Shown piece after piece: positions 27,001 to 32,444 of a stretch of 32,444 bases of DNA. This stretch comes from a virus (lineage: Duplodnaviria; Heunggongvirae; Uroviricota; Caudoviricetes), in IMG/VR virus record IMGVR_UViG_2859821903_000002, positions 1-32,444 of that record, one strand, 5' to 3'. How positions within the stretch are numbered: position 1 is the first letter of the stretch; the number at the start of each line of letters is the position of its first letter. A program made the position numbers.

Positions 27001-30000
27001 TTGGAGCGGGGATTGAGGATACTGATGGCCAGCCCCTGAGCAACATACTGCTGCTGGCTGACCGTATTGCGATGATTAACCCGGAGGACGGCAACACCAC
27101 GCCGTTATTTGTGGCGCAGGGGAATCAGTTGTTCATGAACGATGTGTTCCTGAAGCGGCTGTTTGCGGTGAGTATCACCTCGTCCGGCAATCCCCCGACG
27201 TTTTCCCTGACGCCGGAGGGCAGGCTGACCGCAAGAAATGCTGATATCAGCGGTAACGTGAATGCGAACTCCGGGACGCTCAACAACGTCACGATTAACG
27301 AGAACTGCCGGGTTCTGGGAAAACTGTCCGCGAACCAGATTGAAGGCGATCTCGTTAAAACAGTGGGTAAGGCTTTTCCGCGGGACTCCCGGGCACCGGA
27401 GCGGTGGCCATCAGGGACCGTTACCGTCAGGATTTATGACGATCAGCCTTTTGACCGGCAAATTGTTATTCCGGCGGTGGCATTCAGCGGCGCTAAGCAT
27501 GAGAGAGCATACTGATATTTACTCCTCATGCCGTCTGATAGTGCGGAAAAACGGTGCTGAAATTTATAACCGTACCGCGCTGGATAATACGCTGATTTAC
27601 AGTGGCGTTATTGATATGCCTGCCGGTCACGGTCACATGACGCTGGAGTTTTCGGTATCAGCATGGCTGGTGAATAACTGGTATCCCACAGCAAGTATCA
27701 GCGATTTGCTGGTTGTGGTGATGAAGAAAGCCACCGCAGGCATCAGTATCAGCTGAATTTTATAACCCATATACGGGCGCCAGAAATGGCGCCTTTTTTA
27801 TTGCAGAAAAGCGAGAGGTAATTATGCGTAAAGTTTGTGCAGCCATTTTGTCCGCAGCCATCTGTCTGTCCGTATCCGGTGCGCCTGCATGGGCGTCTGA
27901 ACATCAGTCCACACTGAGCGCGGGGTATCTTCATGCCCGTACGAACGCTCCCGGCAGCGATAATCTGAACGGGATTAACGTGAAATACCGTTATGAGTTT
28001 ACGGACGCGCTGGGGCTGATTACGTCCTTCAGTTATGCCAATGCTGAAGATGAGAAAAAACGCACTACAGCGATACCCGCTGGCATGAATATTCCGTTCG
28101 TAACCGCTGGTTCAGCGTAATGGCGGGGCCGTCTGTGCGCGTGAATGAATGGTTCAGCGCGTATGCGATGGCGGGTGTGGCTTACAGCCGTGTGTCGACT
28201 TTCTCCGGGGATTATCTCCGCGTAACTGACAACAAGGGGAAAACGCACGACGTGCTGACCGGAAGTGATGACGGTCGCCACAGCAACACGTCTCTGGCGT
28301 GGGGGCTGGCGTGCAGTTTAACCCGACCGAATCCGTGGCCATTGATATTGCTTATGAAGGTTCCGGCAGTGGCGACTGGCGCACTGACGGTTTCATCGTG
28401 GGTGTCGGTTATAAGTTCTGATTAGCCAGGTAACACAGTGTCATGACAGCCCGCCGGTTCGGGCGGGCTTTTTTGTGGGGTGAATATGACAGTAAAGATT
28501 TCAGGTGTACTGAAAGACGGCACAGGAAAACCGGTACAGAACTGCACAATCCAGCTGAAAGCAAAACGTAACAGCACCACGGTGGTGGTGAACACGCTGG
28601 CATCTGAAAATCCGGATGAAGCCGGGCGTTACAGCATGGACGTTGAGTACGGTCAGTACAGCGTTATTCTGTTGGTGGAAGGGTTCCCGCCGTCACATGC
28701 CGGGACCATCACCGTGTATGAAGATTCTCAACCCGGTACGCTGAATGATTTTCTCGGTGCCATGACGGAGGATGATGCCCGTCCGGAGGCACTGCGTCGC
28801 TTTGAACTGATGGTGGAAGAGGTGGTGCGTAACGCAGAGGAGGCGAAGAAGAATGCCGGAGAGGCGGAGACGTCAGCGAGGAATGCCGGCATATCAGCCA
28901 GTCAGGCAGAAGAGAGCGCTGCAAATGCTGACACTTCAGCAGGGGATGCATCGGAGTCAGCCCGGCAGGCGGCAGAAAGTGCAGCCTCAGCAAAGCAGTC
29001 AGAGGAGGCGTCCTCGTTCTCGGCCTCTGCGGCCGCTCAAAAAGCCAGTGAGTCATTACAAAGTGCAACAGATGCTGAGTTGTCAAAAAAGACGGCAGAA
29101 AGTGCAGCCGGTAATGCAGTCAGGGATGCAACGACCGCAACAGAAAAAGCCCGGGAGTCAGCAGAAAGCGCACAGTCAGCGGAACAAAGCAGGATAGCGG
29201 CGGAAGAGGCCGTAAACCGAATCCCCACCGTGGTGGGACCTCCCGGGCCAAAGGGGGAACCGGGGCCCGCGGGTCCTCAGGGGCCGAAGGGAGATAAAGG
29301 AGAGCGTGGCGACACCGGCCCGGCAGGTGATGCTGGTCCGGCAGGCCCGCAGGGGCCGAAAGGCGACAGGGGAGAGACCGGTCTGACGGGAAATGCAGGT
29401 CCACAGGGGGCAAAGGGAGATACGGGAGCTGCAGGCCCGGCAGGCGCACAGGGGCCAAAAGGTGACAAAGGCGATCCGGGAGTGGCTGGACCAGCAGGTC
29501 CGGCAGGTGCGCCGGGGCCGAAAGGCGATAAAGGTGATCCGGGAGTAGCAGGTCCAGCAGGTCCGGCGGGGCCACAGGGACCGAAGGGAGACACAGGAGC
29601 CCCGGGCAAGGAACAGAACTGCTTACTACTGCCAATACATGGACTCAGGCACAAACTTTTAATGGTGGTATTAATGGCAATTTGACGGTGACCGGAAACG
29701 GCTCATTTAACGATATTCAGATCCGTTCGGATAAACGCAACAAGCGAAATCTGGTAAAACTGGATAATGCGTTAGATCGTCTGGAGGCACTTACTGGTTA
29801 TCTTTACGAGATACAGTACTCTGCCGACGGTTGGCAAACGTCGGTTGGTTTAATTGCTCAGGATGCACAAAAAGCATTGCCTGAACTGGTAACTGGAGAC
29901 GCAGACGTTATATCTGGTGAAAAACGTCTGCGTCTTAACTACAACGGCATAATTGCATTGTTAGTCGAGGGCTTTAAAACACTTCGTCATGAGATTAAAG

Positions 30001-32444
30001 AACTCCGGGAGAAGTAAACGACAGCTGTTGTAGTTTCTGGTTTCTACTGAATTTAAATTGTGGGGTGACACTCACCCCACGCATTCAGAAGGGGGAGATG
30101 AGATGGGGGTAACATCGGGATGGGTAGGCTCTTCGGCTAAGAGCGAAACAGGTGAGCAGTGGATGGGAGCCGCCGGAACCAAACTGGGACTGAGTAAACC
30201 TTTTATGATGAGCCAAATGGTTGGGCGAACTATGGGCTGTAAAATTGCAACTGAGTACTATAAATGGAAATCCTCTGACAAGGTTGATAACTGGGGCGCA
30301 GTTGGCGCTGACTGGCCTTTAGAAGAAAAAAGTAAAGGTACAATTACAAACGCCGCAAGCTGCGGATCAGGGAGGCTGGTAGGGGCTGTCGTTACACTTT
30401 CTCACTTTTTGACGAACTCTACACCGACAGCTGCTGTTTATTTAGCCGGTGGTAAAGCAGGTAACATCACCGTAAACGTAGGTGGTGCTACACAAACCAT
30501 GATTTATCAGGGCGTTGTTAGTGGGTTCCAGTATTACTGGTCAGGTTCTGTTAGTTCCGCTTTCGTGGAGGCAATGAAAAAGACGGGAGTACCCCAGGAT
30601 CTAAAAATTAGTTAAATGGTAAATAAATAATTTTAAAAACTTCACGTTCTACATACCGGAGACGCCGGATATATAGGATATTGTTTTAAGTTGCCAGAGA
30701 AATTTTTCCGGACGGATGCTGATAATAATGATGTGCCAATGACGGCAGCATCATTGATGGCACTGAGTGAAGCGACAGAGCAGGCGATGTTTGCGAAGGG
30801 AGTGGAGATTAATACACGGCAGTTGCAGATGAAAGCCGAGGTTGAGGCGCTGACAGACCTGAAGGCGATCCGCAGTTATGTTGTCGGATGGCCTGCTGGC
30901 TGAATAAAAAAACGGGACCACGACCAGTCCCGGAACCATGAGTTTTAGGGTATTAGTTTGTTATCATAGTTAGCGTGCTAAGTATGCCATGTCAGGTTGA
31001 TTAGTGAAGTGATGTTGTTCGCATTTTTGCACGGCGGAGAATATTCAGATTTTTGGAAATCCATATTTTTCCCGTGCGCGATTACATGCTTCATTTACGA
31101 TGCTATTTTCGCCGGACATTGCGAATTCCCTGCATGTGGACGGTTTTTGTAAACAGAGCAATATGCGTTTTCTCCGGGGGGGGCCGGCAAGAGCGCCACA
31201 TCGGGGATTTTTCTGATTGGTGCCGCGCATACAGCGATGAAAAGGAGATATTTGCTCAGTGAGACTGACCGAAACCTTTCCGCCAGCATCGTCAGTTTCT
31301 GCCCAGTAAAAAGAGACGCGGAAAATGCACAACAGGCACCACACGTCATGCATGGATTCAGATTGCTCATAATTCACCAGTACAGCTATAAATCGTAAAG
31401 AGAACAGCGGTACATCGTATGTAAGAACGTACCGCGGCTGGCTGGTGAACTTCCGATAGTGCGAGTATTGAATGATTTCCAGCCGTTACAGATTTTACGT
31501 GCTAATTAGTGAACAAACCACTCGTCAGCAGACTCCCAGGTATCTTTCAGAGTTTCCTGAACAAAAGTTTTAGCTGAATCTTTATCGGCGGTGCGCGTAA
31601 CAGAAAGGCCATCGTTGCTGGTAGCTTTTACGATCACCTCTACATCGTCATAACGTTTACTGATGCGTCGGGTTAATTCTTCCTTTAACGCATCCACAGC
31701 ACCGGTTGGCATTTTAGTCATTTTTTCTTTGGCTATGCAGATTTCAATACGCATAAAAGTCCCTCTACACTGTGTTTGTATACAGTATCATTTTTGACTG
31801 TATGGATAAACAGTATCAAGGGTGAAGGAAAGTGATTTTTTGGGGCATGCATGGGGCAAAAATATTTGTTGTGGGGCATTTTGGGGCATGATTGGGACAC
31901 TTTGTTACATATGAACTTTGCCGATTTTTATATGACATGGAAATACAACGCTTTGATTCTTCTAAATAAAAAACATGCTCTTGGGCGTTCTTTAGTGATT
32001 TTTAAAAATTCCGTATCACGCAGTTAAAGTGGCGGGCATACTCTTCAAGGCTGGTAATCCCCAACCGCACCCATTTAGGGTGCGACCATTGCGGTAGACC
32101 GATGTAAATCATAACGCGTGAAGGATCTCTTCCACGCTACGCACACGGGCGATGCGCGGGTAGATATGATTAATGCTGTTATTGTGTTGCTCGGCGCTGG
32201 CGGCACTACAGGCGTCTTCGGCAATCACCAGATTAAAGCCAAGTTCCCAGGCATTGCGGGCGGTGGATTCAACACCGATATTGGTCGAGATCCCACATAA
32301 CACTATTGTATCGATACCTCGGCGGCGCAGTTGCAACTCCAGATCCGTACCGTAAAACGCACCCCACTGACGTTTGATGATTTCGATATCACTGTCAGTT
32401 GCACCTAATGCAGCTGGATGTTGCCACCAGTTTTCGGGCAACAC

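What the first reader, a model, noticed from the sequence alone, without database searches (positions are those of the whole stretch)
28486..30017. Side tail fibre with collagen-like stalk joined almost directly to an S74-type chaperone domain
After the lambda-Stf-like N-terminus and a long acidic/Ala-rich segment, about 130 residues of Gly-X-Y repeats lead within ~30 residues into the C-terminal intramolecular chaperone domain. There is no obvious receptor-binding domain in between, which suggests an internal deletion or that binding is supplied by another protein, possibly the downstream unknown ORF.
Basis: partly seen in the sequence, partly recalled or inferred. Interest (0 to 1): 0.45.

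Follow-up and report, generated by a model that had tools for sequence, protein, structure and literature searches.

The report
Prophage side fibre with separate adhesin
This is a known type of prophage side tail fibre whose tip lacks a binding domain by design, because a small Gp38-like adhesin from the next gene probably docks on it; the gene appears broken here only through a likely one-base sequencing error.

Summary
It has a lambda Stf N-terminus (aa 1-133), an Ala/Ser/Glu-rich coiled-coil segment (134-250), 42 uninterrupted Gly-X-Y triplets (251-376), a 38-residue tip, and a 96-residue Peptidase_S74 chaperone domain.

However, 28486-30017 is not one ORF in the window. A C4 run at 29601-29604 is C5 in every relative, so the reading frame breaks there. 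The window carries about 22 such homopolymer deletions, so this is almost certainly a sequencing artefact.

The "internal deletion" idea is refuted. Intact homologues of 388-519 aa have the same collagen-tip-S74 junction and no extra domain. This architecture was published in 2012 as EPclD.

The downstream 170-aa ORF (30103-30615) carries the Gp38 N-terminal fibre-attachment domain. The fibre's tip plus chaperone matches phage S16 gp37. In S16, chaperone self-cleavage exposes the Gp38 docking site.

The cassette (end of collagen, tip, S74, gp38) is 94% identical to ORF65/66 of the O104:H4 Stx2a phage P13374. It was joined to a lambdoid Stf by a crossover inside the collagen repeats.

The adhesin's head is a small beta-sandwich, unlike the classical polyglycine Gp38 head, and has no solved relative. 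Verdict: an ordinary, known kind of system. Low interest.

The parts
28486..28884 (+). stf codons 1-133: lambda-Stf-type N-terminal virion-attachment domain (PfN)
   Evidence: Pfam PF08400, E=1.6e-68, residues 1-133. About 93% nt identity to stf of VT1-Sakai and BP-4795.
28885..29235 (+). stf codons 134-250: Ala/Ser/Glu-rich low-complexity segment (PCoil, predicted trimeric alpha-helical coiled coil)
   Evidence: Composition is A 35, S 22, E 15 of 117 residues. The equivalent segment of EPclA was shown to be alpha-helical and trimeric by CD and SEC-MALLS in PMC3368898.
29236..29612 (+). stf codons 251-376: collagen-like stalk of 42 uninterrupted Gly-X-Y triplets; the frame break lies inside its last triplets
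   Evidence: Regex count; Pfam PF01391, E=2.3e-19. The number of triplets varies from 9 to 45 among near-identical homologues.
29395..29471 (+). Left recombination zone. Here similarity to lambdoid stf (VT1-Sakai/BP-4795, up to 29471) overlaps similarity to the P13374 ORF65 cassette (from 29395).
   Evidence: blastn of the window against L004, L005 and L006.
29601..29604 (+). CCCC run where one C is missing relative to all relatives; it splits the gene into ORFs 28480-29685 and 29682-30017
   Evidence: Alignments; translations.
29613..29726 (+). stf codons 377-414 (read in the -1 frame of the window): 38-residue distal tip, the predicted Gp38 docking site that becomes the C-terminus of the mature fibre
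   Evidence: Nearly invariant across homologues. Its last ~20 residues align with the S16 gp37 tip just before the cleavage site in 6F45_A.
29727..30017 (+). stf codons 415-510 plus stop: Peptidase_S74 intramolecular chaperone domain, beginning with the cleavage motif SDKRNK
   Evidence: Pfam PF13884, 46.5 bits against a cut-off of 22. 6F45_A E=3.1e-13. PHROG T-even 'long tail fiber distal subunit' families, E down to 2.8e-36.
30060..30080 (.). Perfect 9-10 bp GC-rich hairpin (GTGGGGTGA-CAC-TCACCCCAC) in the stf-gp38 spacer; function unknown
   Evidence: Present with substitutions in the O104:H4 copy.
30103..30615 (+). Gene for the 170-aa Gp38-like tail fibre adhesin: N-terminal fibre-attachment domain (aa 1-44) plus a beta-sandwich head (aa ~45-170). 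Intact in the window, preceded by the Shine-Dalgarno-like GGGGGAG.
   Evidence: Pfam PF21721, E=7.9e-20. PHROG 1121 'tail fiber adhesin', E=4.4e-60. 6F45_D E=0.0022 over residues 1-44. AF2 model with head pLDDT about 90. RefSeq name 'receptor recognizing protein Gp38'.
30691..30903 (+). 70-codon remnant (C-terminal end) of a DUF4376 tail-fibre-associated gene. The right-hand end of the imported cassette lies at about 30734, inside it.
   Evidence: Pfam PF14301, profile positions 55-99 of 106. RefSeq 'incomplete; missing N-terminus'. Full 223-aa versions follow gp38 in L010-L012. P13374 similarity ends at 30734.

Best explanation
The interval encodes a lambdoid-prophage side tail fibre of the published 'EPclD' type. 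Its parts are a lambda Stf N-terminal domain that anchors it to the tail, a trimeric coiled coil, a collagen-like triple-helical stalk, a 38-residue tip and a C-terminal S74 intramolecular chaperone.

Inferred mechanism, by homology to Salmonella phage S16 gp37/gp38 and T2-type phages:
- The chaperone domains of three chains drive trimerisation and folding from the C-terminal end.
- They then cut themselves off between R414 and S415 (motif IR^SDKRNK).
- The new C-terminal tip is the docking site for one copy of the 170-aa protein encoded 85 nt downstream.
- That protein's Gp38-type N-terminal domain, with its conserved Trp7 and Trp20, plugs onto the tip. Its small beta-sandwich head is the actual receptor-binding element.

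The missing receptor-binding domain is therefore a design feature, not a deletion.

The distal cassette (last collagen repeats, tip, chaperone, adhesin gene) was acquired as a unit. It is 94% identical to ORF65/ORF66 of the short-tailed Stx2a phage P13374. The left crossover lies inside the collagen repeats and the right one lies inside the former downstream DUF4376 gene.

The frame break at 29601-29604 is most likely a homopolymer under-call in the sequence record, not biology.

Shown here: the domains, the homologies, the gene linkage, the mosaic junctions and the frameshift pattern. Inferred only: self-cleavage, docking and receptor binding.
For: - Domains: Pfam hits for PF08400, PF01391 and PF13884; domain boundaries.
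- Both partners of the S16 complex are matched. The fibre C-terminus matches 6F45_A gp37 at E=3.1e-13, with SDKRNK aligned to SDRRIK. The downstream protein, residues 1-44, matches 6F45_D gp38 at E=0.0022 with both Trp aligned. It also matches Gp38_N at E=7.9e-20 and PHROG 'tail fiber adhesin' at E=4.4e-60.
- The S16 mechanism (IMC autocleavage exposes the Gp38 docking surface; Trp prongs insert into it) is summarised in PMC7917993. That paper gives a related site, DVYIR^SDGRLKI, close to NDIQIR^SDKRNKR here.
- Gene linkage: in all 8 independent loci inspected (L007-L014), and in H1 and P13374, the S74-ended fibre gene is followed by a 170-aa Gp38_N gene.
- W7 and W20 are invariant in the short-Gp38 family alignment.
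- Intact same-architecture homologues of 388-519 aa exist. The architecture is listed as EPclD, with the same 519-aa and 411-aa proteins, in PMC3368898.
- Mosaic junctions.
- Artefact reading: about 22 single-base gaps in the window lie in G, C or A runs, against about 2 in the other direction, when compared with a 97% identical prophage. All four homopolymer deletions in the compared part of the window (25481-32244) are absent from three Shigella boydii genomes that are 98.6-99.5% identical. One more lies in an otherwise 99.7% identical ISEc49 copy.
Against: - No experiment shows cleavage, docking or receptor binding for this fibre or for any short Gp38-like protein that I could find.
- The third Trp of S16 gp38 (PFW) is Met here.
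- The PDB match of the N-terminal domain is weak on its own (E=0.0022).
- The prophage is defective anyway, with ISEc49 in the tape-measure gene. A real inactivating frameshift cannot be excluded from the sequence alone.
Confidence: 0.8

Rival explanations
1. Internal deletion: the fibre once had a receptor-binding domain between the collagen stalk and the S74 domain and has lost it.
For: Only the short distance (38 residues) between the collagen and the cleavage site. Many S74-ended fibres and spikes, such as endosialidases and T5 pb1, do carry a binding or enzymatic domain before the chaperone (established knowledge).
Against: The same junction, without any extra domain, is present in intact proteins with different N-terminal parts and in phage P13374. 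The tip is nearly invariant and homologous to the S16 gp37 tip. Length differences among homologues all lie in the collagen tract and are multiples of 3 residues.
Confidence: 0.03
2. Real pseudogene: the C5-to-C4 change is a genuine mutation in a decaying prophage. The cell would then make a 399-aa truncated fibre without tip or chaperone, and the cassette is a dead remnant.
For: The prophage is certainly defective: ISEc49 with an 8-bp target duplication interrupts the tape-measure gene. Related Shigella prophages carry their own real lesions, namely a 10-bp deletion in lom and an IS1 nearby.
Against: The same type of lesion, one base missing from a G, C or A run, occurs about 22 times in about 25 kb and almost always in the same direction. 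These lesions split J, lom, the tape-measure gene and the head genes. None of those in the compared part of the window (25481-32244) is shared by genomes that are 98.6-99.5% identical. That rate, about one per kb, is what homopolymer under-calling produces and is not compatible with a living genome.
Confidence: 0.12
3. The downstream Gp38-like protein is an assembly factor or cap rather than the adhesin. Receptor contact would be made by the fibre tip itself, or only by the central tip protein J.
For: The name gp38 covers a pure chaperone in T4 (PMC9659904). The head domain here is unlike the characterised polyglycine adhesin head. No binding data exist.
Against: The fibre carries its own folding chaperone (S74), so a second chaperone is not needed. 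The matched domain is the T2/S16-type attachment domain PF21721, not the T4 gp38/Tfa chaperone family. In the family alignment the N-terminal 41 residues are almost invariant, while the head diverges to 31-62% identity. That is the pattern expected of a conserved dock with a variable receptor-binding head.
Confidence: 0.1
4. Programmed ribosomal frameshift or phase-variable switch at the C run.
For: The two frames overlap and the break is in a homopolymer.
Against: All relatives are in frame with C5. A run of four is too short for a contingency locus. There is no X XXY YYZ slippery heptamer. Identical lesions are scattered through unrelated genes.
Confidence: 0.01

Closest known systems
EPclD collagen-like prophage fibre proteins (Ghosh et al. 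2012, PMC3368898): PfN-PCoil-Col-PfC2, e.g. S. dysenteriae SDB_03138 (519 aa) and S. boydii SbBS512_E1096 (411 aa)
   Same: Same protein family and domain order. The PCoil is 116-117 residues. The 519-aa and 411-aa versions were recovered here as the closest homologues at 99% identity.
   Different: The window copy has 42 triplets (126 residues) rather than 45 or 9, and it is frame-broken in the record. The 2012 paper did not recognise PfC2 as an S74 chaperone and did not mention the downstream adhesin: 'S74' and 'chaperone' occur 0 times in it.
Salmonella phage S16 (and T2-type) long tail fibre tip: gp37 with a C-terminal intramolecular chaperone plus gp38 adhesin (Dunne et al. 2018; PDB 6F45)
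   Same: The fibre ends in a homologous tip plus IMC with the same S-D-x-R-x-K cleavage motif. The next gene encodes a protein with the homologous N-terminal attachment domain and conserved Trp residues.
   Different: The shaft is a lambda Stf N-terminus plus coiled coil plus collagen, not the T-even gp37 shaft. The adhesin is 170 aa rather than about 250. It lacks the beta-helix and polyglycine type II sandwich domains and has a beta-sandwich head instead. The virion is lambdoid with a long non-contractile tail, not a myovirus.
ORF65 (tail fibre) and ORF66 (tail fibre adhesin) of the O104:H4 Stx2a phage P13374, phi191 and Shigella phages 75/02 Stx and Ss-VASD; the 'EAHEC-specific 900-bp' fibre sequence of Grande et al. 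2014 (PMC4122784)
   Same: 94% nucleotide identity from window 29395 to 30734. This covers the last collagen repeats, the tip, S74, the spacer hairpin and the whole adhesin gene.
   Different: In those phages the cassette ends an 863-aa fibre on a short-tailed Sepvirinae virion. Here it ends a 510-aa lambda-Stf-type fibre next to J and lom.
Common EHEC lambdoid Stf (EPclA; VT1-Sakai H0004, BP-4795 ORF75, 437-439 aa)
   Same: About 93% nt identity through lom, the Stf N-terminus, the coiled coil and most of the collagen, up to window 29471.
   Different: EPclA ends in a ~75-residue globular PfC domain (PF06820) followed by an overlapping DUF4376-type gene. It has neither an S74 chaperone nor a Gp38-like gene.
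Lambda Stf/Tfa
   Same: N-terminal domain PF08400 and gene position after J and lom.
   Different: Lambda Stf has a T4 gp37-like C-terminal binding region folded by the separate chaperone Tfa. Here folding is intramolecular (S74) and binding is delegated to another protein.

Membership tests
Peptidase_S74 / intramolecular chaperone (IMC) domain of phage fibres and spikes | Sequence match to the family model above the curated threshold, located at the extreme C-terminus | tested here: met
   PF13884 scores 46.5 bits against a cut-off of 22, at residues 415-470 of 510. S16 gp37 IMC in 6F45_A, E=3.1e-13.
Peptidase_S74 / intramolecular chaperone (IMC) domain of phage fibres and spikes | Conserved cleavage-site Ser followed by the basic motif (S-D-x-R-x-K) | tested here: met
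   S415-D-K-R-N-K420 aligns with S16 SDRRIK and is invariant in 9 homologues. Cleavage position is as described in PMC7917993.
Peptidase_S74 / intramolecular chaperone (IMC) domain of phage fibres and spikes | Autoproteolytic release after trimer folding | not testable with these tools
   Needs protein expression, SDS-PAGE and mass spectrometry of wild type against S415A.
T2/S16-type Gp38 tail fibre adhesin | N-terminal fibre-attachment domain with conserved Trp prongs | tested here: met
   PF21721, E=7.9e-20, profile positions 1-40 of 40. W7 and W20 align to the S16 gp38 Trp residues and are invariant in the family. The third S16 Trp is Met here.
T2/S16-type Gp38 tail fibre adhesin | Gene immediately downstream of a fibre gene whose product ends in tip plus IMC | tested here: met
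   85-nt spacer in the window. The same linkage is seen in H1, P13374 and L007-L014.
T2/S16-type Gp38 tail fibre adhesin | Beta-helix domain and polyglycine type II sandwich head with glycine-rich motifs and hypervariable loops | tested here: not met
T2/S16-type Gp38 tail fibre adhesin | Binds the host receptor | not testable with these tools
   Needs binding or adsorption assays.
EPclD prophage collagen-like fibre (PfN-PCoil-Col-PfC2) | Domain order PfN, ~116-residue PCoil, one uninterrupted Col domain, and a non-PfC C-terminal domain | tested here: met
   Boundaries are 1-133, 134-250, 251-376 and 377-510. It is 99% identical to the listed 519-aa and 411-aa members outside the collagen length difference.
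Lambda side tail fibre Stf | PF08400 N-terminal domain; gene after J and lom in a lambdoid tail module | tested here: met
Lambda side tail fibre Stf | T4 gp37-like C-terminal binding region assembled by a downstream Tfa chaperone | tested here: not met
   The C-terminus is tip plus S74. Only a 70-codon DUF4376 remnant follows, and no Caudo_TAP gene is present.

The most novel reading that the evidence does not exclude
The short (160-182 aa) Gp38_N proteins may form a distinct class of detachable, probably monomeric adhesins. Their beta-sandwich head would be a fold not yet represented among solved structures. Together with the invariant tip-plus-IMC dock, it would be a plug-in host-range cassette exchanged between short-tailed Stx phages, lambdoid prophages and T4-like Proteus phages. 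Collagen Gly-X-Y repeats would serve as the homologous linker for the exchange. The so-called EAHEC-specific Stx2-phage fibre marker would then be one copy of a widely circulating Shigella/E. coli prophage cassette.
Probability: 0.45. Interest if true: 0.4.

Novelty: new member of a known kind. Interest (0 to 1): 0.22.

Why it matters
The practical value is modest.
- It explains why a whole class of collagen-like prophage fibres (EPclD) appears to lack a binding domain.
- It links these fibres to the S16/T2 dock-and-adhesin mechanism.
- It shows that the fibre sequence proposed as a marker of O104:H4-type Stx2 phages also sits, at 94% identity, in lambdoid prophages of Shigella and E. coli. 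This bears on marker specificity and on how Stx phage host range can be reshuffled from resident prophages.
- The uncharacterised head of the short Gp38-like adhesin is a reasonable target for structure and receptor studies.
- For the genome scan itself, the main lesson is that this window carries systematic homopolymer errors, so apparent pseudogenes in it should not be taken at face value.

Tried and rejected
- Programmed frameshift or phase variation at the C run: rejected, because relatives are in frame and the same lesion is scattered throughout the window.
- Internal deletion: rejected.
- NCBIfam has no model for the adhesin.
- PMC9659904 ('T4- and lambda-based RBP family') concerns the T4 gp38/Tfa chaperone type and is not this system.
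- The BASEL paper PMC11990801 had nothing specific on this cassette.
- The first call to the search of protein representatives failed because my coordinates were off by one.
- The stf-gp38 spacer hairpin does not fold significantly better than shuffled sequence when taken with its flanks (z=-1.76).
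Full report
**1. What is in the sequence**

ORF listing and translation show that the interval 28486-30017 is not one reading frame.
- The frame that starts at ATG 28486 encodes the Stf N-terminus, an Ala/Ser/Glu-rich stretch and the Gly-X-Y repeats.
- After ...GDTGAPG it runs into nonsense ([12 protein letters not shown]...MAI*) and stops at 29685.
- The S74 part (...[15 protein letters not shown]...SDKRNKRNL...KELREK*) lies in the -1 frame and appears as a separate 111-codon ORF, 29682-30017.
- The interval is 1532 nt, which is not a multiple of three.

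I aligned the window with two relatives: E. coli NMBU-W12E19 (98% identical) and the O104:H4 Stx2a prophage. The window has CCCC at 29601-29604 where both have CCCCC. Adding one C gives a 510-residue protein.

**2. Is the frameshift real?**

I compared the window with the 97%-identical prophage of NMBU-W12E19 over about 23.5 kb of aligned sequence, excluding the IS element.
- About 22 single-base gaps lie in the window, almost all in runs of G, C or A. Examples are G5 to G4 at 21436, 22320, 22911, 23687, 24011 and 25160, and A7 to A6 at 28055.
- Only about two lie in the opposite direction.
- They split J (25180-26466, 26487-27515, 27262-27756), lom (27824-28120, 28120-28425), the tape-measure gene and the head genes.

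Three Shigella boydii chromosomes are 98.6-99.5% identical over 25481-32244.
- All four homopolymer deletions of the window in that stretch (26451, 28055, 28301, 29600) are absent from them.
- So is a 2-nt loss in a GA repeat (27501).
- Those genomes have their own different lesion, a 10-bp deletion in lom.

The ISEc49 copy in the window differs from a 99.7%-identical copy by one CCC-to-CC loss.

A rate of about one directional homopolymer loss per kb is the signature of under-calling by the sequencing chemistry. It is not evolution. I therefore treat the break as an artefact (about 85%), while noting that the prophage is defective for another, real reason (section 8).

**3. Domain anatomy of the repaired protein**

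| Residues | Feature | Evidence |
|---|---|---|
| 1-133 | phage_tail_N (PF08400) | E=1.6e-68 |
| 134-250 | Low-complexity segment, 30% Ala, 19% Ser, 13% Glu | Composition count |
| 251-376 | 42 uninterrupted Gly-X-Y triplets (PF01391) | E=2.3e-19 |
| 377-414 | Tip: [38 protein letters not shown] | Sequence |
| 415-510 | Peptidase_S74 (PF13884), starting SDKRNK | 46.5 bits, cut-off 22 |

There is no room for a receptor-binding domain between the stalk and the chaperone.

**4. Internal deletion?**

- The NMBU-W12E19 gene is an uninterrupted 519-codon ORF. RefSeq splits it into a 'partial' and a small CDS, which is an annotation quirk.
- A database search returns many PF08400+PF01391+PF13884 proteins of 450-498 aa, and a 411-aa form seen on 163 contigs, from Shigella dysenteriae, boydii, flexneri and sonnei and from E. 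coli.
- In the alignment these differ from the window protein only in the number of collagen triplets, from 9 to 45.
- Proteins whose N-terminal halves are only 59-71% identical overall (P0107, P0137, P0171) still have a nearly invariant tip plus chaperone and the same junction.
- The 863-aa fibre of the O104:H4 phage ends in the same way.
- Ghosh et al. 2012 already catalogued this architecture as EPclD (PfN-PCoil-Col-PfC2). They list the 519-aa S. dysenteriae and E. coli proteins and the 411-aa S. boydii protein.
- They did not recognise PfC2 as an S74 chaperone.

**5. The downstream ORF**

| Search | Result |
|---|---|
| Pfam Gp38_N (PF21721) | E=7.9e-20, whole model |
| PHROG 1121 'tail fiber adhesin' | E=4.4e-60, full length |
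| S16 gp38 in PDB 6F45_D | Residues 1-44, E=0.0022 |
| RefSeq name | 'receptor recognizing protein Gp38' |

- In the S16 gp38 alignment, Trp7 and Trp20 are aligned to the S16 tryptophans.
- Phage records call the protein 'tail fibre adhesin'.
- The fibre's own C-terminus matches the partner chain of the same crystal structure, S16 gp37 (6F45_A, E=3.1e-13). In that alignment IQIRSDKRNK lies against LNVSSDRRIK.
- It also matches T-even 'long tail fiber distal subunit' PHROGs down to E=2.8e-36.
- PMC7917993, summarising Dunne et al. 2018, says the last 113 residues of S16 gp37 are an intramolecular chaperone that autocleaves at DLNVS^SDRRIKK and thereby exposes the Gp38 docking surface.
- It adds that conserved Trp residues of Gp38 insert like prongs into pockets of gp37.
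- The related Yersinia phage site DVYIR^SDGRLKI is even closer to NDIQIR^SDKRNKR here.

The linkage is constant. In the window, in NMBU-W12E19, in P13374 and in eight further loci from Shigella and E. coli, a 170-aa Gp38_N gene follows the S74-ended fibre gene after 85-90 nt.

**6. How this adhesin differs from classical Gp38**

Classical Gp38 has three parts: an attachment domain, a beta-helix domain and a polyglycine type II sandwich whose loops bind porins (PMC12032242). Here only the first 44 residues are homologous.
- The rest gives no PF05268 hit.
- An AlphaFold2 model built from 10 family members has an overall pLDDT of 79.5. It is about 90 for residues 45-170 and low for the N-terminal dock, as expected for a segment that folds on its partner. 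The head is a compact sandwich of 8-9 strands with one helix.
- Among predicted viral structures the best matches are other short Gp38_N proteins from T4-like Proteus phages.
- An exhaustive representative search finds a family of 160-182-aa proteins with an almost invariant N-terminus and heads at 31-62% identity. This fits a fixed dock with a variable binding head.
- A weak match of residues 80-139 to discoidin-type repeats hints at a carbohydrate-binding-like sandwich but is unconfirmed.

**7. Origin of the arrangement**

The locus has three zones:

| Window coordinates | Similarity |
|---|---|
| 28000-29471 | 93% identical to lom and stf of VT1-Sakai and BP-4795 |
| 29395-30734 | 94% identical to P13374 ORF65 3' end, ORF66 and flank |
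| 31281-31858 | Again resembles the VT1-Sakai prophage end (ykgJ-like, dinI) |

- The stf of VT1-Sakai and BP-4795 ends in a ~75-residue PfC domain, followed by an overlapping DUF4376-type gene.
- The two similarities overlap by 77 nt inside the collagen repeats. The left crossover therefore used the Gly-X-Y repeats as shared homology.
- The right end falls inside the 70-codon DUF4376 remnant (30691-30903), which RefSeq marks as missing its N-terminus. Other prophages keep a full 223-aa DUF4376 gene after gp38.
- Grande et al. 2014 singled out the same region of P13374 (42,160-43,050: collagen plus Peptidase_S74 end of ORF65 and the start of ORF66). They described it as a 900-bp sequence unique to Stx2 phages of enteroaggregative-haemorrhagic E. 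coli (PMC4122784).
- Its presence here, on a lambdoid J-lom-stf module, shows that it is a mobile cassette and not restricted to those phages.

**8. Context**

The window is a lambdoid prophage.
- The gene order is terminase, capsid, portal, tail, J, lom, stf, gp38-like, dinI, ending next to an isochorismatase-family chromosomal gene.
- The locus is the same as in S. boydii CP049281 and CP026814, which additionally carry an IS1 there.
- An ISEc49 (IS66 family) element sits at 15709-18473. It is flanked by an 8-bp duplication, TCAAAATT, and interrupts the start of the tape-measure gene.
- This prophage therefore cannot make tails on its own. The fibre cassette is more likely a reservoir for recombination than an active host-range determinant of this element.

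**9. Verdict**

- The system is a further copy of a known, annotated and partly published kind, namely an EPclD fibre with an S16/T2-type IMC-plus-Gp38 tip.
- The only open element is the uncharacterised head of the short adhesin.
- Interest is low, about 0.2.

Noticed in passing
whole window; e.g. 5557, 5709, 11949, 12488, 21436, 22320, 22911, 23687, 24011, 25160, 26451, 28055, 28301, 29600: There are about 22 single-base deletions in G, C or A homopolymers relative to close relatives, nearly all in the same direction. They fragment J, lom, the tape-measure gene, the portal gene and other genes. The pattern looks like systematic homopolymer under-calling, so apparent pseudogenes in this window are unreliable.
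   Followed up: yes
window 15709-18473 (minus-strand ORFs 16067-17671 and 17678-18364): An ISEc49 (IS66-family) element, 99.7% identical to copies in E. coli, is flanked by an 8-bp target duplication, TCAAAATT. It is inserted at the start of the tail tape-measure gene, so the prophage is truly defective.
   Followed up: yes
window 29236-29612 and homologues P0065, P0071, P0075, P0080, L001:4087-5646: The collagen tract length is highly polymorphic among 99%-identical proteins: 9, 28, 34, 38, 42 and 45 triplets, giving proteins of 411-519 aa. This implies frequent in-frame slippage or recombination within the repeats and therefore variable fibre length.
   Followed up: partly
window 30691-30903 (junction near 30734): A 70-codon C-terminal remnant of a DUF4376 tail-fibre-associated gene marks the right-hand scar of the cassette import. 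Full 223-aa DUF4376 genes follow gp38 in other E. coli prophages (L010-L012). The role of this protein next to an IMC-type fibre is unclear.
   Followed up: partly
window 30060-30080: A perfect GC-rich hairpin (GTGGGGTGA CAC TCACCCCAC) sits in the stf-gp38 spacer and is conserved with substitutions in the O104:H4 phage copy. There is no T-run on the + strand, so it is not an obvious terminator. Its function is unknown.
   Followed up: partly
window 29395-30180 versus P13374 42,268-43,050: The sequence published as unique to Stx2 phages of enteroaggregative-haemorrhagic E. coli (Grande et al. 2014) is present at about 94% identity in this lambdoid prophage and in Shigella prophages. It is therefore not specific to those phages.
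   Followed up: partly
window 27501: A 2-nt loss in a (GA)n repeat near the 3' end of J (GAGAGAGA in relatives, GAGAGA here) is an indel that is not in a mononucleotide run. It is also unique to the window.
   Followed up: no
window 31095-31370 (-), 31506-31754 (-), 32109-32444 (-): The prophage end carries a YkgJ-like cysteine-cluster gene (frameshifted in relatives; the G-run at 31176 is one G longer here) and a DinI-family gene, as in VT1-Sakai. An isochorismatase-family chromosomal gene follows. S. boydii genomes have an extra IS1 between dinI and that gene.
   Followed up: no
L001/L003 (NZ_CP042892.1) 4087-5646 of L001: RefSeq annotates the intact 519-codon stf of E. coli NMBU-W12E19 as a 'partial' pseudogene plus a separate 109-aa 'tail fiber domain-containing protein', although the ORF is uninterrupted. 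This is an annotation artefact that could hide the architecture in database surveys.
   Followed up: yes
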